This document shows positions 3,044-50,500 of a stretch of 64,000 bases of DNA, in pieces. The translations under genes were made by a program, and so were the position numbers. How positions within the stretch are numbered: the stretch's first letter is position 1; every line of letters starts with the position of its first letter. The notes under the pieces were generated by a model. It worked only from the letters and a program-made list of their open reading frames with translations, was not told the DNA's origin and ran no database searches. The DNA lies in the IMG/VR virus record IMGVR_UViG_3300009159_000032; one strand, written 5' to 3'. Source of the DNA: a virus.

Positions 3044-6000
3044 ATGCTGTTAAATCAATTATTTTCTCCTAAAAAATTATTCGAGGGCGGCAACTTAGCC
3101 AGTCACAAAGCTGACGGACAACCTATGCCAGGATGGCAGGGGATTCCTGGACAACATCAAGCACAAGAACTAGATTTAAACGTACACAACCGTACAGAAG
3201 TAGTAGCTGTACTATCTGATTTATTACACGGTATTAATGATGCATTTGCACAACAATTTAAAGAACCGCTTTGGCATGAAAATTCTGTAAAGGCTCAAAA
3301 GTTCTTAAGTGGTAGTACTATGCGATTCTTTGATAAGAAAATTTCAGACGAAGAATTTGTACGTGTCAAACCTACAGTAGGTGATATTGATACACAGGCG
3401 CCCGATAAACACGAAGGAACAATCAAACAATTCCTTACAGGATTAATTGGTAAGAAAGTAGGCGATGCTAAATTTATTGGATTTAGTGCTGGTAACAATC
3501 AATACACTAGTATGTGGGAAGTTTTACTAAAGGATCTTCCAGTTAAATTACAGATCGACTTTGAATACGGAGCACACGATCCAGAAACTGGATTACCCAC
3601 TCCGTGGCAAGAATACAGTCATAGCAGTTCTTGGGAAGATTTATCAGCAGGTATCAAAGGTGTATTTCACAAATACATCGATCGCGCCTTGCCATACGCT
3701 TCTACTGTTAGCACTAAGTATGTTGCTCGTGTATTAAAGAAAAGTACAAAAATCAGTGATGAACCTGTAACAGATTCAGATTACAGTTTTGCTGTCAGTG
3801 GTCAAGGCGGTGGTGGTGTAAGTAGAAAGTATGTTCCTTATAATGATCCAGCTACTGGTGCTCCTATGGAAAGAGACGGCATACCAGTTATGCAGTTATT
3901 AGATCCAGCAAACAGACAATACATTCAAAATCTTGGACAACAATTTGAAATTTTCTTTGGTCGTAAACCCAAAGGTAATGATCAGCAACTTAAAAATAGT
4001 TTTGTGGGCACTGTAGAACTAGCCAACAAATATCTAGACGACCAACAACGTACAGAATTATTCAACAGATTTGTATCTATATGTTTCGAACCTGGTAGTC
4101 AAATGATTACCAAAGGCGACCCAGCTAGAGATCGCAATATTAAAATGGCTGCTATTGATTACATGATTCAAAACATGAAACTTGCTAATCCTCAGGGCAT
4201 GAGAAAGCAGGCTATTAAAACAGCCATGGACTATGAGCAGGCCTTTACTTCAAAGCAGGCAGGTAAGGGCTTGAACGAAGCAGAAGTTAAGGCACAGTTT
4301 CGTAAAAACATGCCTCACCTTAAGGATCTAAAGCCCATTGATTTTTTAGATTTGTTAGATGAATTGCATCAAGGCAACGGACAATTTAAATTAAAGAATA
4401 TTCCATTAAATGTCAAAGTAGATGGCTTTGGTGGCCGCTTTGGTAAGAACTCAGACGGCAAGCCATTTATGGCCACAAGTAGAACAGAGCCGCGTTATCA
4501 AGCAGGCTTTGTTGACTATCATCAAAAGAAAGGCACAACTGATCCCGAAATACTAGGTCGTGCTCAACTTTTTGACGATTTGTTTGCAGAAATGATGAGT
4601 GCTGTACAACTTGTTGACAGCAAACTAGGTCCTGATTTTTTAATTAACAAACAAGTAACCTGCGAAGTTTTATATCTGCCATTTGCTACAGAAACTCCAG
4701 AAGGCAGGTTAAAATTTGTAGGTATACACTATGACAAACTTCCACAGGGTGTTCAATTAGCACTAGTTCCGTTCCGCGTAACAGATGCAACCACAGGCGA
4801 AGACCTTCCAGAGTCAAATAAAATAGTTAAAGAATTAACCAGCGTAGGTCGTCAAGGCAGTGTAATGTTTATTGACAACAGTCTAACACAAAACGAAGAA
4901 TTAGATGTTACTGAAATTATTAATGTGTTAGATAATATTGAAGAATTAAAACAGATTGTGTCGGACACTGCTGGTAAAAGAGATCGTGCTAGTTTAGATC
5001 TTAGACGTCAAGTTGAAGAAAAATTACAACCAGTTAAAGTAGAACTTGAAAAAGCAATTATTAACGATCCTAACATCATTGGTAAAGATTTATTGGGCAA
5101 AGACTACGAAGGTATTGTTATCAATAGTCGCCTTGGTCCTATTAAAATTACCAGTCAAGAACAACGTGATGTTATTAGTGCTAAAAATGCAGCTAAAGTA
5201 AGTGCAAGAACAGAACAGCCACGTGCAAATTCTAATAAAACAGCAGTAGTAGCAATAGGATCTTTTATTGGTCATAAAGGGCACGAAGAACTTTGGGACT
5301 ATACTGTTAAGAAAGCAGAACAAGTTGGCGGTGATCCTTATCTGTTTATCGGTAATGCAGAAGGCAAAGACGATCCTATTCCTCCTTCAGTTAAAGTACA
5401 GACATGGCATAAACTATATCCAGAATATGCTAAGAATATCAGCACAGTACAAGAAGGCGGACAGCTAATACAAAAGATCAAACACGAATTAATTAATCCA
5501 CTTCCAGGTAAACCTCCACGCTATGATAACATTATTATCATGGTTGGCGAAGATAGAGCAGGTATTAACATGCCTAATGCTTTAATGAAAGCTGTGAACA
5601 AATTCCAAGGATATGAACATGTTAAGGTAAGCCTTGATGTTACTCCGCGTGGCACTGGAATTAGCGGAACTGCGTTACGTAATAGTCTAAAAAATGATCC
5701 TCCAGAAAAAGCATTGGCTACATGGTCTAATGCATTTGATGTAAACAAACTTGGTGTTGATTGGATCAAACACTTAATGGATATAACGAGAAAAGGTATG
5801 GGCATACAACAAACACAACCACAACAACCTGCATCGCAGCCCACACCAATGGCTGAGATGAGACTGTTCAACGCTCTTGTAGCACCAAAACATAGTATGC
5901 AAGAAGGCTTAGGTAAACACGTTGCTAGTGCTGCATTAGCAGGTGCTATGGCATTCGGTGGTGCAGGAGCACATGCCCAGAGTTCAGGAGAAGATTTTTT

Positions 6001-7117
6001 ACCCGATATTGTTGCTCACGTTACTTTTAAAGTTAACGGCAAAGAAATATCAAAAGATATTAATCTAGGAACAACATATAAATCTCCCGGTGAAGCGTCA
6101 GCTGCACTTGAAAAATTCTTAAAATCTAAAGGCATCAAGTATTTTGAATATAGTCTTGAGCGTGTAAAATCAAAAGATGACGACTATATAGATAAAACTC
6201 CGGCATCAGATACAAGTACATCGGGTTCCGTAGACAGTCGTCCTTACAGTTCAACTGGAAATTCACCAAGTAACTATATGGCTAAAGAAAATGTAGAAGA
6301 AGCTAAGTCTGCTAGTAGACGTTGGCATGATGCATTACAGCGTGAAAAAGAACGCCGTGAACGCAATGAACGTGCAGGTCAAGAACTTCTAAATCCTAAA
6401 AAGAAAGAAGAACCTAAAGAAAAAGATGTGGCGGAAGGCTCCTTAGAAGCAAATACTCCAAATCCTGTTGTAGTAGTACAAGACTTAAAAGGTAAGATTT
6501 TAGATAAAGTAAATCTATCAATGGCTGTACAAAAATATAAATTAGGCAACCCGCAAGATATAAAAAATCAATTAGCACATCAAAACTATACTCAAATTGG
6601 AAATTATATTATAGTGTCACCTATGAGCGGACAGCCGCAAGATGCAACAACGCAAGGTGTGGCGGAAGGTGACAGTGGTGCAAAATATAAAGTAAGAAGT
6701 ATTGGGCACGATGCCAAAGGTGATTATTATATCAGCCCAAGCACAGGAAAAAAAGTTTATAAAAAGGGTGCCAAAGTCGGTGATCACGAAAATCCCAAAA
6801 CGGGCGAGCACAAAGGTGTAGCGGAAGGTGATAGTCCAGCAATGGCACATACTACCAAGAGCTTGGAAAATCCTCCTAAGGTTATGCAACACCGTGCCAA
6901 ACGTGATCAAGAACGTGATAAGCAACTACAATATAGAAATATTTCTAAACGAGATGAAGATCTAGACGAAAAAATCAAAGGCGCAGACGGCAAAGCCTGC
7001 TGGCCCAACTATCGTTACAACGGTACAGAGAACGGCTCAGACAAGTGTGTTAAAATTGGCGAAGCATGGGAATTAGAAATGTCTAATGCTATTAGTAAAC
7101 TATTTGAAAACCGATGA
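3044..7117 (+). CDS. 1357-aa multidomain protein/polyprotein: Pol-beta-type NTase + ligase-type (KxDG) NTase + HIGH-type cytidylyltransferase-like domain + short modules
   Basis: Motifs GS..GDID (3311-3391), NVKVDG (4409-4426), YEGIVI/PIKI (about 5105-5150), GHKGH (5270-5284), MVGEDR and GISGTALR. The C-terminal modules are separated by VAEG repeats. Confidence 0.75.
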   Translation: MLLNQLFSPKKLFEGGNLASHKADGQPMPGWQGIPGQHQAQELDLNVHNRTEVVAVLSDLLHGINDAFAQQFKEPLWHENSVKAQKFLSGSTMRFFDKKISDEEFVRVKPTVGDIDTQAPDKHEGTIKQFLTGLIGKKVGDAKFIGFSAGNNQYTSMWEVLLKDLPVKLQIDFEYGAHDPETGLPTPWQEYSHSSSWEDLSAGIKGVFHKYIDRALPYASTVSTKYVARVLKKSTKISDEPVTDSDYSFAVSGQGGGGVSRKYVPYNDPATGAPMERDGIPVMQLLDPANRQYIQNLGQQFEIFFGRKPKGNDQQLKNSFVGTVELANKYLDDQQRTELFNRFVSICFEPGSQMITKGDPARDRNIKMAAIDYMIQNMKLANPQGMRKQAIKTAMDYEQAFTSKQAGKGLNEAEVKAQFRKNMPHLKDLKPIDFLDLLDELHQGNGQFKLKNIPLNVKVDGFGGRFGKNSDGKPFMATSRTEPRYQAGFVDYHQKKGTTDPEILGRAQLFDDLFAEMMSAVQLVDSKLGPDFLINKQVTCEVLYLPFATETPEGRLKFVGIHYDKLPQGVQLALVPFRVTDATTGEDLPESNKIVKELTSVGRQGSVMFIDNSLTQNEELDVTEIINVLDNIEELKQIVSDTAGKRDRASLDLRRQVEEKLQPVKVELEKAIINDPNIIGKDLLGKDYEGIVINSRLGPIKITSQEQRDVISAKNAAKVSARTEQPRANSNKTAVVAIGSFIGHKGHEELWDYTVKKAEQVGGDPYLFIGNAEGKDDPIPPSVKVQTWHKLYPEYAKNISTVQEGGQLIQKIKHELINPLPGKPPRYDNIIIMVGEDRAGINMPNALMKAVNKFQGYEHVKVSLDVTPRGTGISGTALRNSLKNDPPEKALATWSNAFDVNKLGVDWIKHLMDITRKGMGIQQTQPQQPASQPTPMAEMRLFNALVAPKHSMQEGLGKHVASAALAGAMAFGGAGAHAQSSGEDFLPDIVAHVTFKVNGKEISKDINLGTTYKSPGEASAALEKFLKSKGIKYFEYSLERVKSKDDDYIDKTPASDTSTSGSVDSRPYSSTGNSPSNYMAKENVEEAKSASRRWHDALQREKERRERNERAGQELLNPKKKEEPKEKDVAEGSLEANTPNPVVVVQDLKGKILDKVNLSMAVQKYKLGNPQDIKNQLAHQNYTQIGNYIIVSPMSGQPQDATTQGVAEGDSGAKYKVRSIGHDAKGDYYISPSTGKKVYKKGAKVGDHENPKTGEHKGVAEGDSPAMAHTTKSLENPPKVMQHRAKRDQERDKQLQYRNISKRDEDLDEKIKGADGKACWPNYRYNGTENGSDKCVKIGEAWELEMSNAISKLFENR

Positions 7118-7389: not shown

Positions 7390-7764
7390 ATGAGAATATC
7401 TGAATTACTCACCGAAGTTAAGTCTGGCAAAATCAGCAAGAGAGCACAACAACCCAGTCGTGGCATTAACACCTATGGCGATGTTGAACACGCAAACAGC
7501 GACTATGTAGGCTTTAAGCTAGGGCAGGCTATGGCAATGAGTGACGGTTCGGGTGCTCCGATAAACATTGACCCTAAGAGCTGGTACGGTAAAAAGAAAA
7601 CTGTGCATCCTTATTCAGAAATAGAACAACAGATGTTTAAAGATGCGGCTAAGGTAGTCGGAGCTAGTTATAAAGATATAAACAAAGGCGATATGAAAAG
7701 CAAAGAGCTAGACAGTACTCACAATATTAGTCCTGTGCCTGATAGAAAGAAGCTAGCAAAATGA
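7390..7764 (+). CDS. candidate internal head protein
   Basis: N-terminus MRISELLTE resembles a T4 capsid-targeting sequence; ATAAATA lies at 7376-7382. Confidence 0.7.
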   Translation: MRISELLTEVKSGKISKRAQQPSRGINTYGDVEHANSDYVGFKLGQAMAMSDGSGAPINIDPKSWYGKKKTVHPYSEIEQQMFKDAAKVVGASYKDINKGDMKSKELDSTHNISPVPDRKKLAK

Positions 7765-7925: not shown

Positions 7926-8773
7926 ATCATCCAGACCACGAAATAGAAATGGCACGTTCCGAATTATATTCAATAGCCAAATATGCTATTGCACTTCACG
8001 AGATGTTAGAAAATGTCAGTGAACTAGACGGCATGGAAGGTTGGCAACAGAGTAAAATCACTCGTGCAGCTGACTACATGGAAAGTGTTTATCAAAGCCT
8101 TACACATGAAATGAAATTTGGAGAGTCTGCTCCCAAAGGTTGGGAAGGTACCGTTAAGGCCATGAAGAAACACAAGGAAATTGATAATCCTTGGGCACTA
8201 GCACACTATATGAAAAACAAAGGCTACAAGAGTCACAAGAAAGAAGAAGGTGTGGCAGAAGCAGGATATGGTCGTAACAAAGATTACGATCCCGGATTTG
8301 CCAGTCCACACGCACCAAAGTTAACACCTATTGGTGGTCCAAAACAAGATGACGAATACGTAAACGGTAATCCAGTAAACAATATTGAAGTATCTATTAA
8401 CGGTCGTCCTTGGAAGATATTTCCAGGCAAGGGACCAGATGGTAGTCGGGCATTTTTCCAACAAAAACAAGATGTTGACGAAATGTGTAAACGCAAGACT
8501 GCCGCAACTGGTAAGAAATGGAGTTGGGGTGTTACCGGTGAGCCTGCTACCAATGAAAGTACTGTGCAGGAACACAAGAAAGGTGTACGTGCTATGAAGC
8601 ATACCACTAAGCCAAGAAACCCAGTAATGGCTGGAGACAAACCAGGTAAAGCAACTGTTACTCACAAAAACAAAAAGAAAGATCAACAACGCGGTGTAGA
8701 AAAACACAAAGGCAAAGAACCTGCTTATGAATCGCGCCTGTGGAACGCACTGTCACAACACTTAGAAAAATAA
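7922..8773 (+). CDS. modular hypothetical protein, candidate polyprotein
   Basis: 283 aa of short modules separated by FGE/S, VAE/A, TNE/S and VQE/H; contains one GVAEA repeat. Confidence 0.75.
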   Translation: MNHPDHEIEMARSELYSIAKYAIALHEMLENVSELDGMEGWQQSKITRAADYMESVYQSLTHEMKFGESAPKGWEGTVKAMKKHKEIDNPWALAHYMKNKGYKSHKKEEGVAEAGYGRNKDYDPGFASPHAPKLTPIGGPKQDDEYVNGNPVNNIEVSINGRPWKIFPGKGPDGSRAFFQQKQDVDEMCKRKTAATGKKWSWGVTGEPATNESTVQEHKKGVRAMKHTTKPRNPVMAGDKPGKATVTHKNKKKDQQRGVEKHKGKEPAYESRLWNALSQHLEK

Positions 8774-10026
8774 TGCGTATACAAGAGCTAGTTGAAACAT
8801 CAAAGCGTACACCAGATTTGATGGATGCGTTTAAGGTTTTTATTCCTCTAGCTATGAAAGAGCTAGAGATTGATCAGCTACCTGATATTAAATTACAATC
8901 AAAATTAGAATTAGATGAACAACCTTCATTCGGACGTTTTGTTCAACATGAAAACAGAATTTATCTAGCTTTGGAAAATCGTCATCCTATTGATATACTT
9001 AGAACATTTGCACATGAACTTGTACACTACAAACAAGGTACAGAACACGAGTTAGATTCTAATAGCGGCGACACTGGTAGTCCACAAGAAAACGAAGCAC
9101 ACGAAGTAGCTGGTGTTATTATGAGACATTTTGATAAAATGTATCCTGAGTTTTTTGATACTTCTGCTGTTGATATCAGTGAAAGTTTGCGAAGTAAGGC
9201 AGCAGGGCTGGCATTAGGTGCTTTGTCTCTAGGTGCTCAAGCTACTGCACCACAGATAGTCCAACAAATTGTCGAGCCAGGTGATACAGTTTATAGTATA
9301 GCAAGACAAAATAATGTACCGCCTGCTGAAATTATGAAACTTAATAAAATGGGGCAAAAGACTAAACTTGAAATTGGTCAGAAAGTAAAAGTTCCAGATT
9401 ATTCAAAACCTATTAGCAAAATGCCTGCTACAGTAACTCCTACTGTTAAGCAAGAACCTACTAAAATATCTCCGGATGCACAGGCAGCTCCAATGAAAGT
9501 ATTGCCTAAAGTAGGCAGTGAAGTTTCTTTATTAAGTAATAATACGGATGCTGAGGCTGCATTGCAATCTGCTGCCAAAGCCGCAGGGCTTAAAGGCGCA
9601 GAGCTGGCACAGTTTATGGCGCAGACTAGACATGAAAGTTGGGACTTTGGCAAAATGAAGGAAGTAGGTAACAAGAAAAAATTTGCCAAATATGAAACTC
9701 CACGCAAAGCAAGACAATTAGGCAATAAAGTAAAAGGCGACGGTGAAAGATTTAAAGGTCGTGGCTTTATACAATTAACTGGCAGAGATAATTACACTAG
9801 AGCCAGTGAACAAATTTTTGGTGATGACAGACTAGTTCGTAAACCTGAATTAGCCAGCGATCTTAACATTGCTGCTAAGATTGCACTTTGGTATTGGAAA
9901 AATCAAGTTAGACCTAATGTAAATAACTTTAATAATACAAAAGAAGTGACTAATGCAATTAATCCGGGTCTAAGTGGACTACAAGACCGACACAATAAAT
10001 TTAAGGAGTATCTAGCAGTATTATGA
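8773..10026 (+). CDS. zincin-like (HExxH) + LysM + GH19 chitinase/peptidoglycan hydrolase
   Basis: Likely start is ATG 8773 (TAATG overlap, MRIQELVE). Motifs AHELVH..ENEAH, LysM VEPGDTVYSIARQNNV (about 9271-9396), and GH19 FMAQTRHES, GRGFIQLTGRDNY and ALWYW. Confidence 0.85.
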   Translation: MRIQELVETSKRTPDLMDAFKVFIPLAMKELEIDQLPDIKLQSKLELDEQPSFGRFVQHENRIYLALENRHPIDILRTFAHELVHYKQGTEHELDSNSGDTGSPQENEAHEVAGVIMRHFDKMYPEFFDTSAVDISESLRSKAAGLALGALSLGAQATAPQIVQQIVEPGDTVYSIARQNNVPPAEIMKLNKMGQKTKLEIGQKVKVPDYSKPISKMPATVTPTVKQEPTKISPDAQAAPMKVLPKVGSEVSLLSNNTDAEAALQSAAKAAGLKGAELAQFMAQTRHESWDFGKMKEVGNKKKFAKYETPRKARQLGNKVKGDGERFKGRGFIQLTGRDNYTRASEQIFGDDRLVRKPELASDLNIAAKIALWYWKNQVRPNVNNFNNTKEVTNAINPGLSGLQDRHNKFKEYLAVL

Positions 10027-10715
10027 GAGTCAATGAATTTATAAACGAAGGCTGGAGCCAAAAATATAAAAAAAGCATTAACTGTTCGCACCCAAAAGGT
10101 TTCAGTCAACGTGCTCACTGTGCTGGCAAAAAGAAGCATAACGAAAGCATAGAAACAGAAATGACCTGCCCTGACTGCGGTCTTTGTGAGGCACACGGCA
10201 ATAGTAAAATTTACGATAAGTGCTGGACAGGTTTTAGAAAAGTACCAGGAAAGAAACGTGGTGAAGATGGTAGCTGTAAGAAGATTGGTGAAGATGAAGA
10301 ATTACATCAAGAGTTTGACTTAATTGAACAAATGGTTGAGCATATTGCAAGACAACACGCTATTGATCCTGAATTTGTCTGGGAAGATCTAGAAAGTCTC
10401 ACAGACGACGAACTATATGTATTTGCTGTCACACAAGAACCTGTAATGGAAGATTGGCAAAAAGTTAACAAAAGAGATAAAACCGATGGCATGAGCCGTA
10501 AAGCTGTTAATGCTTATCGAAGAGAAAACCCGGGTAGTAAATTAAAGACCGCCGTAACTACCAAGCCAAGTAAACTAAAGCGTGGTAGCAAGGCCAGCAA
10601 GCGTAGAAGTAGCTATTGTTCTAGGTCCGCTGGACAAAAGAGTATGCATCATATTGATTGCAGCAAAACTCCAGACAAGGCAATTTGCAAAGCACGACGT
10701 CGTTGGAACTGCTGA
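10023..10715 (+). CDS. basic, Cys-containing modular protein, candidate internal head polyprotein
   Basis: Starts MRVNEFINE/GW; K/R-rich modules are separated by HNE/S, IGE/D and VME/D. Confidence 0.75.
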   Translation: MRVNEFINEGWSQKYKKSINCSHPKGFSQRAHCAGKKKHNESIETEMTCPDCGLCEAHGNSKIYDKCWTGFRKVPGKKRGEDGSCKKIGEDEELHQEFDLIEQMVEHIARQHAIDPEFVWEDLESLTDDELYVFAVTQEPVMEDWQKVNKRDKTDGMSRKAVNAYRRENPGSKLKTAVTTKPSKLKRGSKASKRRSSYCSRSAGQKSMHHIDCSKTPDKAICKARRRWNC

Positions 10716-10915: not shown

Positions 10916-11593
10916 ATGACCGAAGAATTGCACACTCAACCAATATATCGAAAACATGAGATACCTCTTGTTAATTATCTAATGACTTTTAAAGATGCCC
11001 TAACAGAAGAATTTTTAAAATTTCACGATAATTGGTTTAATCAAGATGAAGATGTAAAAGGCCTTATACTAACTAGACCAGCAGGTCGAAACGTTGACAA
11101 TTATTTAAGCGACCCTAATGCATGGAAATCTTCGTGGATCAGATACGAATATACTCCCGGAGGTAAAGTTCTTAATAATGATAATACTATTTGGACTTTT
11201 CCAACAGCACATAAAATAATGAAACAGTATGAAGGGCAACTTGGAATTGTTATGTATAGTGTGTTAGAAGCAAACAGTGTTATCAGTAGGCATACTGGTC
11301 CAGAAAATCGTACTGGCGAATATTTAAGAATTCATTTGCCTCTTATTGTGCCAGACGGTGATATATTTTTAGAAGTGAACGGGGAAGAAATAGATTGGAG
11401 CGAACCTTTTGGTTTTAATAATCAGTATATTCACAGTGCTCATAATTATAGTCCTAAAAGAAGATTGGTATTTTTGATCGATATTAAAAGAAGTTTTCTA
11501 GGATTACCTCGAGGAGTTCATTTTCGTGCAAAAGATCATATAGCATATCTAGCATCAGTTCAACCTTTTAAAAGAAAAGGTATTACAATATGA
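10916..11593 (+). CDS. aspartyl/asparaginyl beta-hydroxylase-family 2OG-Fe(II) dioxygenase
   Basis: Motifs SRHTGPEN, LRIHLPLIVP, GFNNQYIHSAHN and RRLVFLID. Confidence 0.8.
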   Translation: MTEELHTQPIYRKHEIPLVNYLMTFKDALTEEFLKFHDNWFNQDEDVKGLILTRPAGRNVDNYLSDPNAWKSSWIRYEYTPGGKVLNNDNTIWTFPTAHKIMKQYEGQLGIVMYSVLEANSVISRHTGPENRTGEYLRIHLPLIVPDGDIFLEVNGEEIDWSEPFGFNNQYIHSAHNYSPKRRLVFLIDIKRSFLGLPRGVHFRAKDHIAYLASVQPFKRKGITI

Positions 11594-12129
11594 GAGACTT
11601 ATTGACCATTATAGAAGCTGTAGAAACTAAAAAATTAACTACAGAAAAACTGCCCTACGGCAAGTCTGAACTTAATCCTGTCATGAGTGATGCCACTATC
11701 AATTATCATTACGAAAAACTAGCCAAGGGGTATGCAGAAAAATATAACAAAGGCGAAGGTGATGATGCTTTTAATATTGCAGGAAGTTTTCTTCATAATT
11801 TATTCTTTCCTCAATTACAGCCTCCCAAAACAAATAATAAACCTGTAGGTGCAAGTTTAGCACTTATTGAAAAGAAATTTAAATCATTTGAAAAATTTCA
11901 AGAAGAAATGCAAACTGAAGCTATGAAAATACAAGGCAGCGGATGGATTTACATGAGCACATCCGGTGCTATTAAAACAATTAAGAATCACGAGGTTAGA
12001 AAAGATATAGCATTGTTGATTGACTGGTGGGAACATGCCTGGGCATTGGACTACCAAGCAGACAAGCAAAAATATATCAAAAACATTTGGCGTATAATTA
12101 ATTGGGAAGTTGTTAACTCAAGACTATAA
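11590..12129 (+). CDS. sod: Fe/Mn superoxide dismutase
   Basis: Motifs LPY..ELNP, INYHY, FLHNLFF, QGSGW and IDWWEHAW..DYQ..K..YI..IW..INW. All four metal ligands (H, H, D, H) can be identified. Confidence 0.9.
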   Translation: MRDLLTIIEAVETKKLTTEKLPYGKSELNPVMSDATINYHYEKLAKGYAEKYNKGEGDDAFNIAGSFLHNLFFPQLQPPKTNNKPVGASLALIEKKFKSFEKFQEEMQTEAMKIQGSGWIYMSTSGAIKTIKNHEVRKDIALLIDWWEHAWALDYQADKQKYIKNIWRIINWEVVNSRL

Positions 12130-41577: not shown

Positions 41578-44500
41578 TTATTGACCTATTAAAGGATCTC
41601 CTGTTTCACTGTCTAAAGTATCTCCGGATTCAAGCACCAGATATTGATCAGTTGTAGTGTTCTGACCATAGTAATATTTATCTGGCATAAAAGATGGGCT
41701 CTCTAACAAGAACTGTATTTGATCTGTGTTGCGTAAATGGATATTAGAATATTCAAATCCAGTCACAACATCAGTCTTAATTACTACCTTAATTTCAGCA
41801 TCTTCTCTTGGTAAACTAGCCAATACTAAAACGTTAGTTCCAGTTATTGAAAACTCAGGAACAATTGTTTCATTACTTGATGTACCGTATGAATTAACTG
41901 AATCAGAATCGTATGCAATATCAGTACGTGTTCGAACATAGTCTAAACCAGGTTTTGTTAATTGGCGGCCTTGAACAAATACATCAATTTGATACTGTGT
42001 CGCAGTTGATGCGGAAAATGTCAACGGTGTTAGAGCATTTAGATCCCAAGTTGAAGTTCCGTATCTAATATTGTCTGCACCTGTGGCCCAATATGTAGTA
42101 GCAGTGGTCCAGGTTCTAACATTTTCACTTACATAAATTGTCTGTCCTGCACCTTGATCAACAACTATTGAACTTTCTTTGTGCAGAGTTTTAACACCTG
42201 TGCCTAATGTACCTCGTCTTAGGCTACTTAGTTTATTACCAGATAGTCTGTAGAATTCAATTCTTTCGCCGTTAATAAGAATAATACCAGGACGAGATCT
42301 AGCAACGTTAGGCGGTGTTAATACACTGGCATCCTCAACTGTGATCTCAGTGTCAGAGACTGTAAGATCAGCAGCTAATTGTGTAGAATTATTACCGCTT
42401 AGTCGCTTATAATGTGTTCTTCCTAAGTTGTCTCTAAAAATTCTATACCCTAATAACGATTCATTTGTTTTATCAACAACGCTCATTATTACTACAGTGT
42501 CACTTCCTTGTATAGATATTGATGGACTTACTATAATAGTCTTTTGATCACTTTCTAATCTGTAGTGAATATTTTTTGTTAAAGGTTTTCCATTAAGTTC
42601 AACCCATACATAGTTTGTACTTAATGCTGGTCTGGTTAATCTAAAAATTCCACTGCCGTTTCCAGGAAATCTTTCTCTTCTAATCAACGAATTATCGTGA
42701 TTGGTAAAAGTAGTTACTTTTAATGTACTAGAACTAGCAACACTGACTCTATCAGTAAAAATTAAATTTTGTCCTTGAACAATATAGTCATGATCGCGAA
42801 GTATAGTAATTGCAATTGCATCACCTTGTGAAATTGTGTCGACTGCAAATTCAATTAAATTTTCTTCTTGTCGAAGAGATAAGGCTGCACCAAAATATCT
42901 TCTAACGCCATTAACATATACTTCTAAGTGTGCCATGTCAGGAAGACCCTGAACATAATTGTAATGTTGATCAAAAGAGAAAGTTAACTGATTAGTTTCT
43001 GCAATATAATATACAGTATCGGGAGGACTTAATCTTGTACCATTTCTTTCAACAATTATTTGACTATGCAAAGGTCCAATTACACCCGGTGACTGGGATA
43101 ACACAAAAGTGCCGGTGCCAATATTGGCAGAAATATACTGATCATTGACTTCGCTGAATGCTTTGTGTTCGCCGGCAAACGCCCACGCTTGTAGTAGATC
43201 TCCATAATTTAAATTGTTAGTAAATCGTATAATAGCTCTGCCAGACATTCCCCCGTTAGTAGATCCCACTAAGGTATAGGCAGTTGATTTCACTCCGTTA
43301 ACTGTTACATACAAACTTTTAACGCTGGACTTGCTTACTGATAATTCAAAATTATTTTTTCCTGTAGCGGAACTAACGGCATAATGAGCTTTATCAATTA
43401 AATTCTTACCGCCAACATTCATTGTGGTAATTGACAAAAATTGTGGTGCAATCGTCTGAGCTCTAAATGGATCAAAACTGCCTCGGCCTGCATATTTCCA
43501 ATTGCCACCGTTAATTGTACTGTAGAAAACATGGCTAGTATTATTAAGAATTTGTGTGTAGTCTACTTCAACTCCGGTACCGTTAGTTGTTCCTGTTTTG
43601 CCTGTAGCAATACCCGTGATAAATCCTAAATCGCCATTAAAGTTTGCTTCACGCCACGTGTTCTCATAAATCATTTCAACATATTGGTCAGTACCATTAC
43701 TGTACAAAGTAACTTCGTATTGATACGCCGGAACTGTAGGAGTTTGCTCTCTTTTATTATAGTGCGATCCTTGGAATCTTAATCTCCAATATGTAAAATC
43801 ACCTATTGTTCCGCCACTCAAAAATAAGCCAGGAACTTCTCCGGTATCTAAAGGTTGCCCAGAACTTCCTACTGCCTGCCATAAATCGCAATATTCAATA
43901 TATATAGCAGGTTGAGTTAAAAATCCTAATTGAAGAGGTGTCCAAGATGAGTTTCCAGACCCAAATGTTAGGTATCCGTTAGTACCTACATAAACTTCAT
44001 CATATATAGAATCAAACATATTCCACTCAAATCCCAATGAGTACGGACCTGTTGATGTATCATCTCCAGCTGTTGACGCTATAGGAAAACTAATGTTTTC
44101 TTTTCTTGGAAGGACTACGGTTGAACTAAAATAAGGTCCTTGAATTTCAAGTAACGGACTATCTAATAATACTATTTCATTTGTCTCAAAATCAATAGTG
44201 TAATCAATAGCGTATGTTAGCACTGTGCCATCTTTGATAACTTCAACAGAACTAGTGTTTGGAGGAGTCATACCTATTGCATATCTAATAACTCCTACTT
44301 CAAGATAATGTTGTTTATTAATAACTAATCCAGTCCCTGATTCAGGATATGTAAAAATATTAATACCTAAACTATCAGAAACTCTTCCAGGAAGATTTTC
44401 TTCAGGTCCGTAACTATTTGTAGCACTAACAAATGCATCACCGTCAATGTTGATATCTTCGTAGTCGTTAGATTTGGTTAATACCAAATCTCCATCAAGG

Positions 44501-47500
44501 TTAGAATAATAGCCGCCGCCAGAAATATATGTGTCTAGATCAGGATCAACTATTGGACTACTGCCGTCGCTTGACTGTGTTCTAAAAATTATTGTAGCAG
44601 TAGAATTGTATATCTTGTTAACAGTAACAGTACTTTGATATCCGTTACCAACAAATGTAGGCATAATAGCATCTGGATTTGTTGCTGTAGTTCCATCAAT
44701 CCTAATTGTAGCGAACTTATTAGTTACTGTATTAAGAGTTTGAACATAGACATTAATTGATTCATTTAATTCAGGAACAAAATCTAACTGATAAGTGTAA
44801 GGATTGGGATTTAAGAAAGTAACTGTTCCTGTTGTAGTTGCATTAGTAGTTGTTGAAATTGTCACTGCCCATTGCGAAACACTGCCACCTTTGTAAGTTG
44901 AAGATGTAACTGTGTATATTGTGTTTGTTGTTAAGGCAGTAGTAGTGGATCCAACTTTAACTGTTTTAACATCTGGGTAATTGATTAAATCAAAGTAGAA
45001 TGTATTGGTAGTTGCATTAATGTTGGTATCGTTAAACTTAGCAGATATTCTTGGTCCTTTTGCTAGATATGCTCGTTCCTCGGGAATATAATCGTCCCAA
45101 TTGTTTACACCGTATGGCAATGAATCAAAACCACTAGATAAACCAAATGGTAATGTATCAACAGTAACCCCCGGATATTCTAATCCGTTCATTAATAGAG
45201 TTGCAGTATTACCTGGCATACCTGATGTAGGCTCATAGTAATCTCTAATACGATCAATAGCATTATATAACGCAGTGTCTTTTCTATATTCAATCTCAAT
45301 TTCTGTACGTTTAGAAATAATCTGATCAAATACTAGTCTTCCGTATTTTTTAGTGTAGCCTCTAAATTTATCAGTATAAGTTTCTATTGAGTAGTCGCCA
45401 GATAACACTCGTATACCGTTAAGGGTAACTGTTATATAATTTTTGTCTGGATTTGGTGCCCATGAAAGATCAAACTTGTTTGTTAATCCAGATGCAATAA
45501 ATCTGTCAGTGGCAGTTTTAGCGATAATTTCATCATATCCTGCAACACGATCAAATTTCATCTTAACAATGTTTGATCGAATTTTATTGTTTGACATAAT
45601 TACGCTAACCTTAGCAGGCGTCAGTGTAGACGGTCCTCCACCAATAACGTTTATAATTGGTGTAGCAGTATACCCAGAACCAGGATCTGTTACTATAATT
45701 TGTGTAACTTTTCCTAGTGCAATATAAGCAGTTGCTTTTGCGCCAGATCCAGTATCTCCAGCTTGTGGTACAATTTCAATTACCGGAGGAGTATCGTATC
45801 CAGCACCACCATCATATACCTGTACCGACTCTACAGAGTATCCGTAATTTTCTGCCCATGCCTTCCATGGGTAAACTGTTAGTTCTGGTCTACCAAATGT
45901 GATAGGCGTAAATTGTTTAGTTGATGTATCATACACAGACGGTAAATCAAAGTCTGTAGTAATAGACCGTGTAATATCAGTAGCTGTATAATTTGAAGAA
46001 AAGTTTCTTATTTTTGTATGATAAGGTTTAGTTTCTTCAATATAACTTTGATAATAACTTTCGTTGTTTAGTTTATAAACAGGTCTTTGATCCAAAGCAC
46101 CAGCATAATTAACTACATCAACTAGTGATGTTTTTAAAACCCAATCAAGCGATTTTTGTTCTGTTAACGCATGTTTGATTAATTTAAAGAACAATAAATT
46201 GTAGTATACTTTTAATTCTTTAACAAATACATCTTCAAGTAATCCTAAGAAAATATTTTTAATTTCTTTTGTAGGAGTTTGATCAAATAATGTTTGATCA
46301 AATCCAGCTATTTGGTCAAATCCGTATATTGATTCTGAATAATTCCATAAAGAATCAAGAAGTTGAATTGTTCCGTTTTCTTGATAGACTAAATCATAAG
46401 AATTATTGTAGGTACCAGTTGTTTGTGTGCTAGAAATTTTGCGAAGAATAATATATCTACCATCACCTGCATTTCTAATCTTAACATAATTACCTTCTGG
46501 AACTTCAATTAATGCAGATAATTGATACGGTGCATCTATAGTAGCTAATAGATCTTGAGCATTATTAAATGTTGCGTCAACCCAATCTATGTATTTCCAA
46601 TATAATGTTGTATCATAACTTTGTGAAGAAGCTCTATAGTACTCTTTTTTACTGTAGTCCCATTCGTACTTACTCCATTTATTATTAACATTACTATCAA
46701 CAGATACAATAACTGTAAATGGACGGACTACCACAGTTGGAGCAGTTACATATCCTGATCCAGGATTTATAATAGTTGCCTTAACTACTTGGCCAACAAT
46801 ATTAATTTCAGTTTCAATTATTGCACCATGGCCAGTACCTTCTATTGTTACAGTAGGACCAATATAATTTTTAGATGAAGAGATTGACGATGATAATTTT
46901 AAATTCTCAGCATGGTAGCCATAACCGCGATTAGTTATTACTACATTAACTATTTTTCCGTTCGTTACATTACATGACAATTCTGCACGTTTTAAATTTC
47001 TAGTGACAATGCTAAAATCTTTTTCTATTAAATCTTCTACTAAGAAATCATATTGTCCTAATAATGGGTTAGGCGGAGTATCTTTATCTAAAAATCTAGT
47101 TAGATTAACATAGTCAACTATATTATTCTTTTTAAGAATTGAATTTGCATATTCAACAAGAACTCGAGTAGCCCCTTGTTTGCTTACAAACATTGATTGT
47201 CTTGGTCTAACTGATACACCATAACGATTTCGACTAGATAATTTTTCATCAGGTACAGTATTGTTTAAACTGTCTACACCTACTATACTATCTAACATTT
47301 TGCTGATTAATTTTTTAGGAGGAATACTTGATTTATTACCTTCTTGTAATAACAACCATTCTGTATGTTTATTATTAATATTGTTTATTGAATCTAAACT
47401 AATTGACAAATTAATTTTAGTTCCAATCACACTTGATTGCATATTGGTTAACATGACTGCATTATCAGCAATTATGCCTGCAAATTTAATTCCTTGAGCT

Positions 47501-50500
47501 TTAGGATCTGCAATTATAGTTGCAACATTATAAGCACTTATTTTTCTTTCTACTCCTGCAGGAACTGTAGTTTTATTTTTTACCCAATAGTAATAAAAAT
47601 TACTAAAAGAATTAGATACTGGGTCCCATACTTGTTTTACAGATACAACTGAGTTATCAGAAAATTTTGGTTGTCCGCTTATGCTTTGGGCAAGGCCGTC
47701 AGTTGTATCAGATATCGCTAGCCACTGGCTAGGCAAGTAAGGAGTGCCCACCCATTCATAGACGTCAATCATCGATCCCGGAAACATACTATTCCAATTA
47801 TTTTTTCTAAATTCTAATTCGCCTTGTTCGTACCAAGTATACTTTATCGAACTTAGATCCCACCATAATTCGCCAACATGTTCATCTAACCAATTAGCTG
47901 TAGTATCTACAGATACGCCTGGAAGTCCAATAGAATAAATTGCAGGATCAAATAATGATTTATAACGAAGTTCTTGGTCTGCTATTCCTGAAATTTTTCC
48001 TTTAATAGGATCAATAATTTCTAAGTAATCGACAATACTATCTGTCTCAGTATCGATAGTTTTTATATTTTTAATATTATCTAGATCAACCAATGCTGTT
48101 TCTTCACGTAATGGGTACCAACTGTCTAAAGTGGTAGATTTAGATTCATATAGATACAACGCACCTATTTGATTGTTAATATAATTTTGGCCTGGTGCTC
48201 CTACAGTTATGTAACTATCAGCAACAAACATACTTTTTCCGTATATTTGATCAGTTGATACTCTATTATCAAATAGTTCTTCGGCAAAAACAAATTTATT
48301 TTGTTTTTTAACAAAAGAAAATACTGCACCCGAATTTTTTACTGTGGAATAAAAATTCACTGTGCCTGAGTCAAATGTTGTAGCAGACTCTCTAAGAGCA
48401 CTGTTTGAATCAAGAACATATTTAGGTGAGCCTGATTTTTGTTTTGAAAACACATCAAAGGTTAGGTAAGGTCGATGTGTAGACCCAATACTTGATACTA
48501 CTAACGTTTTTCCGTCAGACGATAAAGACATGTTAGCACCAAAATCATAACCATTATCAATAAACGGATTGCTAATTATTTGATTTAAACTATAACCAGT
48601 TAAATTTCCTATAGAATTGTATTGTGCTTCAAACACAAAAATCTTTCCAACTTTACCATTATCGCCCAGTGCTTTGGGTGCTGACACATATAGATAATCG
48701 CCAGAAGTATCCAATAATATTTTTTCTCCAAAACTATCACCAACTTTAACGTGATCAATTAACTCTGCATCAGTTATATCTTTTGTTATAATGATAGCAT
48801 TTGGTAAGAATGATGCTAGTCTTACATACCCACCGCCAATTGCTGACACTGCTAGTCTTTTAACTTGTCCTTTGTTTACTGCTATGCTATGACCGTATCT
48901 GTCGCCTGATGCAGGCACATGCCCTGACTGTCCAAAAAAGTTGATTACTGTGCTTGTAGACACAACATTGGTGCTTAAATTTAATGTAGTATAGAATATT
49001 GTTCCAGCATCATTATTAAATCCTGGGGCTGATACAACAACAAATTTAGAAAGATTAGAATTAGATGACACTGCTACATCCCAACCAAATTGTGCATATG
49101 ATTGAGGTATTGGACTTGTGAATACTGCTCTGTCAACAGCAGCCGCTGTAGGATTTTCAAAATCAAATTTAACTATCTGTATCAATCCTTCTTCAATTTT
49201 ATTTGATGCTGTGCTATTAGGATTCACAGTTGTAAAATGACTAGATGTATTTCCATACTTAACATGAGATGCCTTAGGTGCTCCGACTAATACCCACCCA
49301 CTGTCTTCGTCAAATTCAATTGACTGGCCAAACATAGGAACATTTGTTCCTGTAAAATATGTTGAGATTGACGAAGGATTAATATTTCTACCACCTGCAT
49401 AAATTAAACCGTTGGCGCCCTTGCCTGATTTATTATAAGCATACAATCTTCCGTATGATGGAGAAATTGATGATTTATAATTAGTTGAGGCAACAATTAA
49501 TTTACTACCTTTACTATTTCCTACTATTGAATACCCGTATTGTTGATTACTGTTAGCACCGAAATTTGTAGGAGAATCATAAAGTGTAGATTCAAAATTA
49601 TTAGTTTTTTGATATACTGCCCATTTTCCAGACCCACTATCATTGACCCAAATTTTTTCTTTGTTCCTAAATTTGTCAAAGGTTGGTAAAGTAGTTAGAT
49701 CATCAAATGAATCAAATCTAGAACTAACAAATTTGAATAATATTCCTATCTGAGGATCGTACGGTGTTGTTAAATCAGTTATAGTTGATTCAAGAATTAT
49801 TTGATTTAGCTCTGGTATAGATTCAACAGTATATACTCCATCAAGATACGGATCAAATTGTGAAATACTAATTATATCTCCAACAGATAGATTATGAAAA
49901 GAATCTGTAGTAACTAATAATGACGATCCAGGAATATAAATTGCAACATCAATTACTTTAGATGATAACTGTGTATAACGATAAACTCCCCAGTCTCCAT
50001 TATTTTCAAATCCAAGCCAAACTGTGTCACCGTCTTTAAGGGCTCTATTATTTGCAATATCTAATAGACTGTTTTTATTAAAAGCTGTTGCTGTAATATC
50101 ATCAATCCTCACATAACCGGCTACAGGAAGAGTACTGGCAATATCGCTGTACTTAGTTGTAGTACTAAATGGGGAGTTTCCATAATTATCAGGTTTTATT
50201 TGTACGTCTTTTGATTCAATATAAGAAATAAAATCTTTTGTAACGACAGGTTTTGTTTGAACAAAGTTAACAATCTGTGGATTTTCTTTAAACTCTGATT
50301 CATTTAAATTAAACTCAAGAGTTTGATCTGTAGAATACGCTCCATATTCGCCAACTCGAACTGCCCAGTCTTCGTAAAAATCTATATAACTTCCTTGAGA
50401 AATTACACTGGCTTTACTTAATTTTTCAACTGTATTCCTTGTGCCTTTTTCTTTGATAAATCCTTGATAAAACTTGTACTGACTAATTGCATTTGTAAAA

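What the first reader, a model, noticed from the sequence alone, without database searches (positions are those of the whole stretch)
9181..10026. Second cryptic signal peptide in front of the LysM-GH19 cell-wall hydrolase
Seen: after DISE (GAA 9181-9183) comes SLRSKAAGLALGALSLGAQA/T (9184-9243), a typical n/h/c signal with an AQA site. It is directly followed by LysM and GH19 domains and preceded by an unrelated HExxH module with the MRIQELVE leader. Established: LysM binds peptidoglycan, and phage GH19 proteins are cell-wall hydrolases. Inference: a packaged muralytic enzyme with a hidden export signal exposed by head maturation. An internal translation start (secreted endolysin) is the alternative, but there is no in-frame ATG at the junction. 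Two independent cases in one locus argue against chance.
Basis: partly seen in the sequence, partly recalled or inferred. Interest (0 to 1): 0.75.

Follow-up and report, generated by a model that had tools for sequence, protein, structure and literature searches.

The report
Masked export signal in phage lysin cargo
A giant uncultured T4-like phage buries a bacterial export signal in the middle of a protein, just behind a capsid-protease-type cut site and in front of a cell-wall-cutting enzyme; relatives keep this layout, which suggests (untested) that cutting in the capsid frees an enzyme that is injected and then sent to the new host's periplasm.

Summary
Residues 138-157 (window 9184-9243) of the 417-aa protein at 8773-10026 form a Sec-type signal. 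It has 5 residues carrying Arg and Lys, a 13-residue hydrophobic core and AQA|T. It lies between a minimal HExxH zincin and LysM+GH19 and belongs to no folded domain.

It is not chance. In 79 distinct junctions from relatives, [L/V/I]-x-Glu precedes the stretch in 72 (background 14.5%). The stretch after that Glu is always net positive and the 10 residues ending in it always net acidic. The -3/-1 positions obey the signal-peptidase rule. Some relatives carry a textbook Tat motif (SRRGFLGG, DRRSFLKG) in the same slot.

About 65-80% of 150 diverse relatives start with a T4 capsid-targeting-like leader. Related records at least 90% complete (3 of 3) encode a T4 gp21-family protease. One complete relative has a separate plain GH19 endolysin candidate. 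No internal start is supported.

Best reading, at about 0.5: a capsid-loaded cargo polyprotein is cut at ISE|S in the prohead, which unmasks an export signal on an injected muralytic module. Packaging, cleavage and export are all inferred.

This scan reached the same principle earlier for the neighbouring gene (5903-5980).

The parts
8773..10026 (+). Gene for the 417-aa modular protein (leader, zincin, masked signal, LysM, GH19); stop codon at 10024-10026
   Evidence: ORF list; Pfam and PHROG hits; identical 417-aa protein P0001 in the protein collection
8773..8796 (+). Leader MRIQELVE, similar to the T4 capsid-targeting sequence and ending in L-V-E
   Evidence: The same type of leader sits on genes at 7390, 7761, 8773, 10023 and 10715, with a looser form at 2666 and 3044. 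T4 CTS is MKTYQEFIAE (PMC8442874). AF2 pLDDT is below 50 for residues 1-11
8806..9180 (+). Minimal zincin metallopeptidase module (residues 12-136); HELVH at 9013-9027, ENE at residues 106-108
   Evidence: H81, E82, H85, E106 and N107 are invariant in the alignments. The AF2 domain model has pLDDT 84. Top Foldseek hits are abylysin, Wss1, selecase, SPRTN and IrrE, at weak E-values of 0.013-0.1. phrog_87 metallo-protease, E 2.5e-5
9175..9183 (+). I-S-E (residues 135-137), the predicted prohead-protease site, with the cut after Glu137
   Evidence: E137 is invariant. P3 is L/V/I in 72 of 79 junctions, against 14.5% background. T4 Alt is cut at ITE-6 and LTE-619 (PMC5694885). Zincin-module borders in other phages fall at ISE, LDE, LEE, INE, LPE and VME
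9184..9243 (+). Masked Sec-type signal SLRSKAAGLALGALSLGAQA, with predicted signal-peptidase cleavage AQA|T
   Evidence: AF2 pLDDT is below 50 for residues 137-159, so it is part of no domain
9250..9405 (+). LysM peptidoglycan-binding domain (residues 160-211)
   Evidence: Pfam PF01476, E 2.3e-11; folded unit in the AF2 model
9406..9522 (+). Pro/Thr/Lys-rich disordered linker (residues 212-250)
   Evidence: AF2 pLDDT below 50
9523..10023 (+). GH19 muralytic domain (residues 251-417), with catalytic Glu288 (9634-9636) and Glu297 (9661-9663)
   Evidence: Pfam PF00182; phrog_181 endolysin, E 2e-31. PDB sequence matches to phage GH19 endolysins (7r6s, 9ms7, 9hqw, 4ok7). H287, E288 and E297 are invariant
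5903..5980 (+). First case of the same grammar, in the 1357-aa leader protein (gene 3044-7117): MQE|GLGKH-VASAALAGAMAFGGAGA-HA|Q
   Evidence: ORF translation; grammar scan

Best explanation
The gene encodes a small 'polyvalent' capsid cargo protein of a T4-related jumbo phage. Step 1 (inferred): the N-terminal leader MRIQELVE brings the precursor into the prohead core, as the T4 capsid-targeting sequence does. Step 2 (inferred): the gp21-family prohead serine protease cuts after hydrophobic-x-Glu sites, namely LVE|T at the leader and ISE|S at the module border. This separates the zincin module from the LysM-GH19 module. Step 3 (shown by sequence only): the new N-terminus SLRSK-AAGLALGALSLGA-QA|T is a canonical Sec signal peptide. 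In the precursor it is masked, because it lies 137 residues from the N-terminus behind an acidic linker. The muralytic module therefore stays in the cytoplasm of the producing cell and can be packaged. Step 4 (inferred): the module is injected with the DNA into the next host, is exported by Sec (by Tat in some relatives) and is trimmed by signal peptidase. It then binds and cuts peptidoglycan from the periplasmic side. What an early periplasmic lysin achieves is unknown. One candidate role is a glycosidase partner for a tail spike that shows no lysozyme domain. Others are wall remodelling or action against competing phages.
For: The feature and its grammar are real and selected. E137 is invariant in relatives down to 41% identity. 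Across 79 distinct junctions, P3 is L/V/I in 72, against 14.5% of all Glu. The n-region after the cut is 3-5 aa in 75 of 79 and net +1 to +4 in all 79. The 10 residues ending in the Glu are net -1 to -7 in all 79. The h-region is 12-19 aa. The signal-peptidase pattern holds in 60 junctions of the LysM clade: -3 is Ala in 59, -2 takes six different residues, -1 is Ala or Gly in all 60, and +1 is never Pro. Nine of 132 scorable diverse representatives carry a twin-arginine motif in the same slot after hydrophobic-x-Glu (SRRGFLGG, DRRSFLKG, SRRDFLLG). Some of these lie 570-670 residues into the protein, where only a proteolytically freed N-terminus could present them as an N-terminal signal. Of 150 representatives, 98 start with M-[RK]-x-x-[ED]-[FLIV] and 120 fit a looser pattern. 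In the 367-kb relative, 7 genes carry the related pattern MR-x-x-E-F-[IL]-x-E. T4 CTS is MKTYQEFIAE, and T4 Alt is cut at ITE-6 (PMC8442874 and PMC5694885). The complete relative G001 has Peptidase_S77 (E 3e-29), a scaffold protein and a Gp23-type capsid protein (E 2e-99). The capsid protein's propeptide holds four hydrophobic-x-Glu sites. S77 is present in 3 of 3 related records at least 90% complete and in 7 of 8 at least 50% complete. Module borders coincide with such sites. The AF2 model places residues 137-159 outside all folded domains. G001 also has a separate 206-aa GH19 with no leader and no signal, which is a better endolysin candidate. As a precedent, the ejection protein gp47 of phage SPN3US gains an N-terminal transmembrane helix after prohead-protease cleavage (PMC5694885).
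Against: There is no direct evidence of packaging, cleavage, injection or export. No cultured phage has this architecture, so no virion proteome exists. The window's own genome is not held, so its protease was not seen, and G001 is only a distant relative (baseplate wedge 39% identical). An injected lysin that must be re-exported is a roundabout route with no clear benefit. Many distant family members lack AxA and have 17-21-residue Gly/Ala-rich stretches that look more like membrane anchors or SAR domains. In stand-alone forms the leader is only 9-16 residues long, so the signal might work uncut as an ordinary N-terminal signal in the producing cell. SignalP and TatP were not run. The sequences are phylogenetically related, so the counts overstate independence.
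Confidence: 0.5

Rival explanations
1. The protein is a producer-cell secreted endolysin. The precursor is cut in the cytoplasm of the producing cell, by its own zincin module or by another protease. The freed signal-LysM-GH19 is then exported by Sec or Tat late in infection to lyse the cell. On this view the leader is not a capsid tag.
For: GH19 domains are classic phage endolysins. The zincin-signal-GH19 architecture is conserved down to 41% identity with an intact active site, which fits a cis-acting latch. Sec and Tat signals work from the cytoplasm.
Against: Only 15 of 150 representatives carry the zincin, so a cis-cleavage mechanism cannot be general. The cut-site grammar matches the gp21 type, and the same motif ends the T4-like leader. 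G001 has a separate plain GH19 endolysin candidate. The diverse unrelated N-terminal modules (GNAT, deaminase, HAD-like, nucleotidyltransferase) fit co-delivered cargo better than a lysis enzyme.
Confidence: 0.17
2. The protein is an uncut bitopic membrane protein. The hydrophobic stretch acts as an internal signal-anchor in the producing cell, with the zincin in the cytoplasm and LysM-GH19 in the periplasm, possibly released by signal peptidase.
For: Internal signal-anchors are common in bacteria (established knowledge). The AxA site could release the periplasmic part. Some distant relatives have 17-21-residue stretches of anchor length.
Against: The h-region here is 13 residues, too short for a stable span. 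The N-terminal flank is net acidic in all 79 junctions, against the positive-inside rule for an N-in orientation. Internal Tat motifs 570-670 residues into a protein are not known to function. This reading explains neither the invariant P1 Glu nor the leader.
Confidence: 0.13
3. The stretch is a membrane-insertion peptide of an ejection protein. After the capsid cut, the Gly/Ala-rich N-terminus inserts directly into a host membrane during ejection, without Sec or Tat. This would anchor the lysin at the entry site, as proposed for SPN3US gp47 and similar in logic to the T7 gp16 lytic transglycosylase.
For: The SPN3US gp47 precedent. The stretches contain small-xxx-small (GxxxG-like) spacing. 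A lysin is useful at the moment of entry, and polyvalent-protein lysozymes have been proposed to breach the wall at invasion (PMC5512222). The gp5-like hub at 60046-62304 shows no lysozyme domain.
Against: The conserved -3/-1 pattern with a free -2 position, and the replacement by canonical twin-arginine motifs, point to the export machinery rather than spontaneous insertion.
Confidence: 0.12
4. The stretch is a chance hydrophobic linker with no function.
For: Ala/Gly-rich linkers occur in many proteins.
Against: The grammar is conserved across more than 100 clusters at 50% identity, and it is rare in the window and in G001.
Confidence: 0.02

Closest known systems
T4 internal proteins IPI-III and Alt (capsid-targeting sequence cargo processed by gp21)
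   Same: A short N-terminal leader ending in hydrophobic-x-Glu (MRIQELVE, or MRASEFITE in relatives, against T4 MKTYQEFIAE and the Alt ITE-6 cut). Related complete genomes have the gp21-family protease, scaffold and gp23-type capsid. The cargo is diverse, fast-shuffling and non-structural, and the genes sit in a cluster.
   Different: Here the cargo is multi-module polyproteins with internal cut sites. One module carries a Sec (or Tat) signal that becomes N-terminal only after the cut. No T4 internal protein is known to be re-exported to the periplasm.
Polyvalent proteins of phages and conjugative elements (Iyer, Burroughs, Anand, de Souza, Aravind 2017, PMC5512222)
   Same: Several unrelated effector domains lie in one polypeptide, including a zincin-like metallopeptidase fused to a lysozyme-type domain. 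These proteins were proposed to be packaged in the head and delivered at invasion.
   Different: That paper does not mention signal peptides or transmembrane segments (0 occurrences). It proposes autoprocessing by the metallopeptidase, whereas here the border grammar matches the prohead serine protease.
SPN3US gp47 ejection protein
   Same: The prohead protease removes a propeptide (AVE-79, ALE-111), and the mature fragment then starts with a hydrophobic helix thought to meet the host membrane.
   Different: gp47 has a predicted transmembrane helix and no muralytic domain, and it belongs to a phiKZ-like phage with an A-x-E motif. Here the stretch is signal-peptide length with an AxA site, and Tat variants occur.
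Secreted and SAR endolysins (for example Lys44 of Oenococcus phage fOg44; P1 Lyz and phage 21 R; named from my own knowledge)
   Same: A muralytic enzyme carries a Sec-dependent N-terminal signal or a weakly hydrophobic Gly/Ala-rich signal-anchor.
   Different: In those enzymes the signal is at the true N-terminus and acts in the producing cell. Here it is internal, or at the least sits behind a capsid-type leader and an acidic cut site, and in one complete relative a separate plain GH19 candidate endolysin exists.

Membership tests
T4-type capsid-targeted cargo (CTS proteins) | An N-terminal leader of about 10 residues, resembling the CTS and ending in hydrophobic-x-Glu | tested here: met
   MRIQELVE compared with T4 MKTYQEFIAE. 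The leader is on 98-120 of 150 family representatives
T4-type capsid-targeted cargo (CTS proteins) | The phage encodes a gp21-family (Peptidase_S77) prohead protease and a T4-type scaffold and capsid | tested here: inconclusive
   Met in relatives: G001, 3 of 3 records at least 90% complete and 7 of 8 at least 50% complete. The window's own genome is not held and the 64-kb window contains no protease gene
T4-type capsid-targeted cargo (CTS proteins) | The protein is physically present in virions with its leader removed | not testable with these tools
   There is no cultured relative and no proteome
Sec / signal peptidase I signal peptide | Positive n-region, hydrophobic h-region of about 7-15 residues, and small residues at -3 and -1 | tested here: met
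   SLRSK / AAGLALGALSLGA / AQA|T. The -3/-1 pattern is conserved in 60 junctions. This is rule-based, as SignalP was not available
Sec / signal peptidase I signal peptide | Location at the N-terminus of the translated protein | tested here: not met
   The stretch starts at residue 138, and no internal start is supported. It becomes N-terminal only if the protein is cut after Glu137
Tat signal peptide | A twin-arginine motif S/T-R-R-x-F-L-K ahead of the h-region | tested here: not met
   The window protein has SLRSK with no RR. Nine relatives have the motif in the same slot
Polyvalent proteins (Iyer et al. 2017) | Two or more unrelated effector domains in one polypeptide of a phage, typically including a zincin peptidase | tested here: met
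   Zincin plus LysM plus GH19. Relatives add GNAT, deaminase, HAD-like and other modules
SAR endolysin | An uncleaved N-terminal, weakly hydrophobic transmembrane domain of about 16-20 residues | tested here: not met
   The stretch is not N-terminal. It is 13 residues long and has a conserved AxA site. Some distant relatives with 17-21 residues and no AxA could be SAR-like
GH19 peptidoglycan hydrolase with LysM | The GH19 fold with its catalytic Glu pair, plus a LysM domain | tested here: met
   PF00182 and PF01476 score over their cut-offs. E288 and E297 are invariant. Phage GH19 endolysin structures match by sequence. Enzyme activity was not tested

The most novel reading that the evidence does not exclude
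A large family of aquatic T4-related phages, at least about 1,900 protein clusters at 50% identity, may use a delivery route from virion to periplasm. Cargo modules would be loaded into the capsid with their Sec or Tat signals masked inside polyproteins, unmasked by the prohead protease, injected with the DNA, and then re-exported by the new host's own secretion machinery. This would let a phage place enzymes in the periplasm within moments of infection, before any phage gene is expressed.
Probability: 0.4. Interest if true: 0.85.

Novelty: new variant of a known kind. Interest (0 to 1): 0.72.

Why it matters
Capsid-packaged proteins are known to reach the host cytoplasm, as T4 IPI and Alt and the N4 virion RNA polymerase do. 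If this reading holds, it adds a second address layer: proteolytic maturation in the capsid would also work as a switch that arms an export signal. That would explain how a muralytic enzyme can be made in the cytoplasm and packaged without being lost to the periplasm or causing early lysis. It would also explain how injected cargo could act outside the cytoplasm. It suggests a general grammar for reading the many unannotated polyproteins of aquatic jumbo phages: leader, modules, hydrophobic-x-Glu borders and masked signals. It further offers a design principle for phage-delivered periplasmic payloads. The hypothesis can be tested directly with reporter fusions and one recombinant protease.

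Tried and rejected
An internal translation start was rejected. The in-frame TTG at 9187 has no Shine-Dalgarno sequence and is not conserved, and the ATG codons at 9121 and 9139 also lack one.

A SAR endolysin reading was rejected for this clade, because the stretch is short and its AxA site is conserved.

I looked for cultured relatives with virion proteomes and found none. tblastn of the window protein and of P0137 against 50,697 phage records matched only the GH19 domain. The cyanophage S-B68 hit is a baseplate-hub GH19, not this family.

The T4 late promoter TATAAATA has only 2 matches against 9.3 expected, so it says nothing about timing.

I could not reach the window's own genome. No genome is held.

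Pfam on the N-terminal module alone gave only sub-threshold peptidase hints. The Foldseek E-values are weak (0.013 and above), although the top hits are nearly all zincins.

SignalP, TatP and TMHMM are not available, so the signal was judged by explicit rules and by comparative patterns. I did not use sequencing-run or complex-prediction tools, because neither could show protein processing.

Full report
**What is there**

The ORF containing the finding starts at ATG 8773 and ends at 10026, giving 417 aa. Translating 9172-9258 gives DISESLRSKAAGLALGALSLGAQATAPQI.

The stretch has three parts:
- a short basic n-region, SLRSK;
- a 13-residue hydrophobic core, AAGLALGALSLGA, with mean Kyte-Doolittle value 1.71;
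- AQA followed by Thr.

Downstream, Pfam finds LysM (residues 167-208, E 2e-11) and GH19 (273-381, E 2e-8). PHROGs call the C-terminal part an endolysin (E 2e-31). The GH19 part matches solved phage GH19 endolysins by sequence, and its two catalytic glutamates, E288 and E297, are invariant in relatives.

Upstream lies an HExxH module. An AlphaFold model built on 23 sequences has pLDDT 84. Its Foldseek hits are nearly all zincins: abylysin, Wss1, selecase, SPRTN, IrrE/PprI and anthrax lethal factor. These hits have weak E-values of 0.013-1. H81, E82, H85, E106 and N107 are invariant.

In the full-length model the folded units are residues 12-136, 160-211 and 251-417. The segments below pLDDT 50 are 1-11 (the leader), 137-159 (exactly the feature) and 212-250 (a linker).

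**Setting**

The window is part of a jumbo myovirus. Its baseplate wedge is about 33% identical to those of Atu_ph07, SCTP-2 and PA5oct. gp25-like and gp5-like genes are present, as are a family B DNA polymerase, a ClpB-like ATPase, a superoxide dismutase and 7-deazaguanine genes. No whole genome is held for the window.

Genes at 7390, 7761, 8773, 10023 and 10715 begin M-[RK]-[IV]-x-E-[LF]. Genes at 2666 and 3044 begin with a looser form of this leader. The T4 capsid-targeting sequence is MKTYQEFIAE, and it is cut off by gp21 (PMC8442874). T4 Alt is cut at ITE-6 and LTE-619 (PMC5694885).

**The family**

A homology search found hundreds of metagenomic relatives. The LysM-GH19 part is about 70% identical across them, but the N-terminal parts differ widely. 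Some proteins are 305-aa stand-alone forms. Others, of 415-1074 aa, are fused to zincin, GNAT, deaminase, HAD-like or other modules.

A hydrophobic stretch precedes the muralytic part in nearly every full-length relative, and the stretch is itself preceded by hydrophobic-x-Glu. I measured 79 distinct junctions:
- P3 is L, V or I in 72, whereas only 14.5% of all Glu in these proteins have L, V or I at that position.
- P2 is D, E or S in 75.
- P1' is D, G or S in 77.
- The stretch between the Glu and the hydrophobic core is 3-5 residues in 75. It is net +1 to +4 in all 79 once the new amino terminus is counted.
- The 10 residues ending in the Glu are net -1 to -7 in all 79.
- The core is 12-19 residues long.

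Cutting after the Glu therefore turns an acidic, non-signal context into a canonical signal peptide.

In the LysM clade I examined 60 junctions. Position -4 is Gly in 58, and -3 is Ala in 59. Position -2 takes six different residues. Position -1 is Ala or Gly in all 60, and +1 is Lys or Thr. This is the -3/-1 rule of signal peptidase I.

Glu137 is invariant in 18 zincin-signal-GH19 proteins down to 41% identity, although the surrounding linker is poorly conserved.

**Export signal rather than plain hydrophobic linker**

A profile search of 1.84 billion representative proteins found 1,916 clusters at E<=1e-30. Among the top 150, 132 could be scored:
- 101 carry a Sec-like stretch internally.
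- 12 carry one directly behind a short leader.
- 9 carry a textbook twin-arginine motif in the same slot after hydrophobic-x-Glu.

Examples of the Tat type are VLE|DLSRRGFLGG, VAE|IDRRSFLKG and LSE|ALSRRDFLLG. In P0184 the leader runs straight into the motif: MKAEEFISE|IDRRGFLGA. Two different export systems occupying one slot argues for selection on export from the cytoplasm.

Some Tat motifs lie 570-670 residues into the protein. Only a proteolytically freed N-terminus could present them as an N-terminal signal.

As a caveat, many distant members lack AxA and have 17-21-residue Gly/Ala-rich stretches. These may be anchors or SAR-like domains.

**Link to the capsid protease**

Of the 150 representatives, 98 start with the strict leader and 120 with a loose form. 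Only 15 carry the zincin, and only 20 match a LysM motif.

In the CheckV-complete 367-kb relative G001, only 7 genes match the related leader pattern. Three of them are clustered next to the superoxide dismutase gene, as in the window.

G001 encodes Peptidase_S77, the gp21 family (E 3e-29). Next to it lie a coiled-coil scaffold protein and a Gp23-type capsid protein (E 2e-99). The capsid propeptide reads MSQVLLE|SRWDETKEALLE|GLKGTRRSTMQVILE|NTRKSLLAE|SSAG, which contains four hydrophobic-x-Glu sites.

Among records that hold a zincin-module relative, S77 is present in 3 of 3 that are at least 90% complete and in 7 of 8 that are at least 50% complete.

Module borders coincide with such sites:
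- IWE|AFD in one protein corresponds to the leader end ITE|AFD in another.
- VKE|GWSDKYKK in cyanophage S-SCSM2R corresponds to the window's leader end INE|GWSQKYKK.
- The leader-bearing zincin module ends 8-26 residues after its last helix in 40 of 64 distinct loci. In 21 it continues with other modules after ISE|D, LDE|G, LEE|F, INE|N, LPE|A or VME|K.

**Against an ordinary endolysin or an internal start**

G001 has a second GH19 gene of 206 aa, next to a tail-fibre gene, with neither leader nor signal. It looks like the usual cytoplasmic endolysin. G001 has no Phage_lysozyme match.

The TTG at 9187 lacks a Shine-Dalgarno sequence and is Phe in the 89%-identical relatives. No supported in-frame start exists at the junction in the window, L001, L002 or L003.

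Within the window, only 2 of 7 internal short hydrophobic stretches fit the grammar. These are this one and the one at 5903-5980 in the 1357-aa leader protein.

**Most likely mechanism and what is not shown**

The most coherent model has five steps:
1. The leader loads the precursor into the prohead core.
2. The gp21-type protease cuts at LVE|T and ISE|S.
3. The LysM-GH19 module now starts with a Sec signal.
4. The module is injected with the DNA.
5. It is exported and trimmed at AQA|T, and it then acts on peptidoglycan from the periplasm.

Masking would keep the lysin in the cytoplasm of the producing cell, so that it can be packaged and does no premature damage.

Only the sequence grammar and its conservation are shown. 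Every biochemical step is inferred. The window's own protease gene was not seen. No cultured relative exists. The benefit of an early periplasmic lysin is unknown. One hint is that the gp5-like hub at 60046-62304 shows OB and beta-helix parts but no lysozyme domain.

I put this model at about 0.5. The rivals are:
- cytoplasmic processing and late export as an endolysin, 0.17;
- an uncut signal-anchor, 0.13;
- a direct membrane-insertion peptide, as proposed for SPN3US gp47, 0.12.

**Comparison with what is known**

The closest known systems are these:
- T4 CTS cargo (IPI-III and Alt).
- The polyvalent proteins of Iyer et al. 2017. These include zincin-lysozyme fusions thought to be packaged, but the paper never mentions signal peptides or transmembrane segments.
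- SPN3US gp47.

Full-text searches found no paper that describes an export signal unmasked by a prohead protease. I rate this as a new variant of a known kind.

Earlier notes of this scan reached the same principle for the neighbouring gene (5903-5980) and listed the leader cluster. I had stated my reading before seeing them. The hint about Tat swaps was a lead, which I then tested and confirmed in this gene's own family.

Noticed in passing
window 11590-12129 (+): The Fe/Mn superoxide dismutase has an N-terminal extension, MRDLLTIIE, of the same leader type. Its G001 counterpart starts MRDIISLLE and also sits next to the leader-gene cluster. It may be a packaged SOD.
   Followed up: partly
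window 60046-62304 (-): The gp5-like baseplate hub has an OB domain and a gp5 C-terminal beta-helix but no detectable lysozyme domain. Its C-terminal part (residues 520-709) matches a PHROG annotated as peptidase. The tail spike may therefore lack a glycosidase.
   Followed up: partly
window 9184-10023 compared with L003 (G001): The signal-LysM-GH19 module is 79% identical in protein (tblastn best segment) and 78% in DNA between the window and G001. Their baseplate wedge proteins are only 39% identical. The module therefore seems to move between distantly related phages.
   Followed up: partly
window 41578-55887 (-): A single 4769-aa ORF lies inside the tail-fibre and baseplate block. It was not examined.
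   Followed up: no
L006 1057-3504 (Synechococcus phage S-SCSM2R, PQ898602.1): An 815-aa 'hypothetical protein' of a cultured T4-like cyanophage ends with the same Cys-rich plus DUF6321 module as window gene 10023-10715, joined at VKE|GWSDKYKK. This cultured phage could be used to test whether such junctions are cut.
   Followed up: partly
L028 1375-1995 (-) (G001 about 285.1-285.7 kb): A stand-alone 206-aa GH19 with no leader and no signal lies directly downstream of a tail-fibre-like gene. It is the likely true endolysin of that phage.
   Followed up: partly
window, whole: The T4 late-promoter octamer TATAAATA occurs only twice, against 9.3 expected from shuffles. It is either avoided or not used by this phage.
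   Followed up: no
P0246 (family representative, 233 aa): One family member has no leader. Instead it has a classical 28-residue N-terminal membrane anchor in front of GH19, which is the ordinary signal-anchor endolysin layout within the same family.
   Followed up: no
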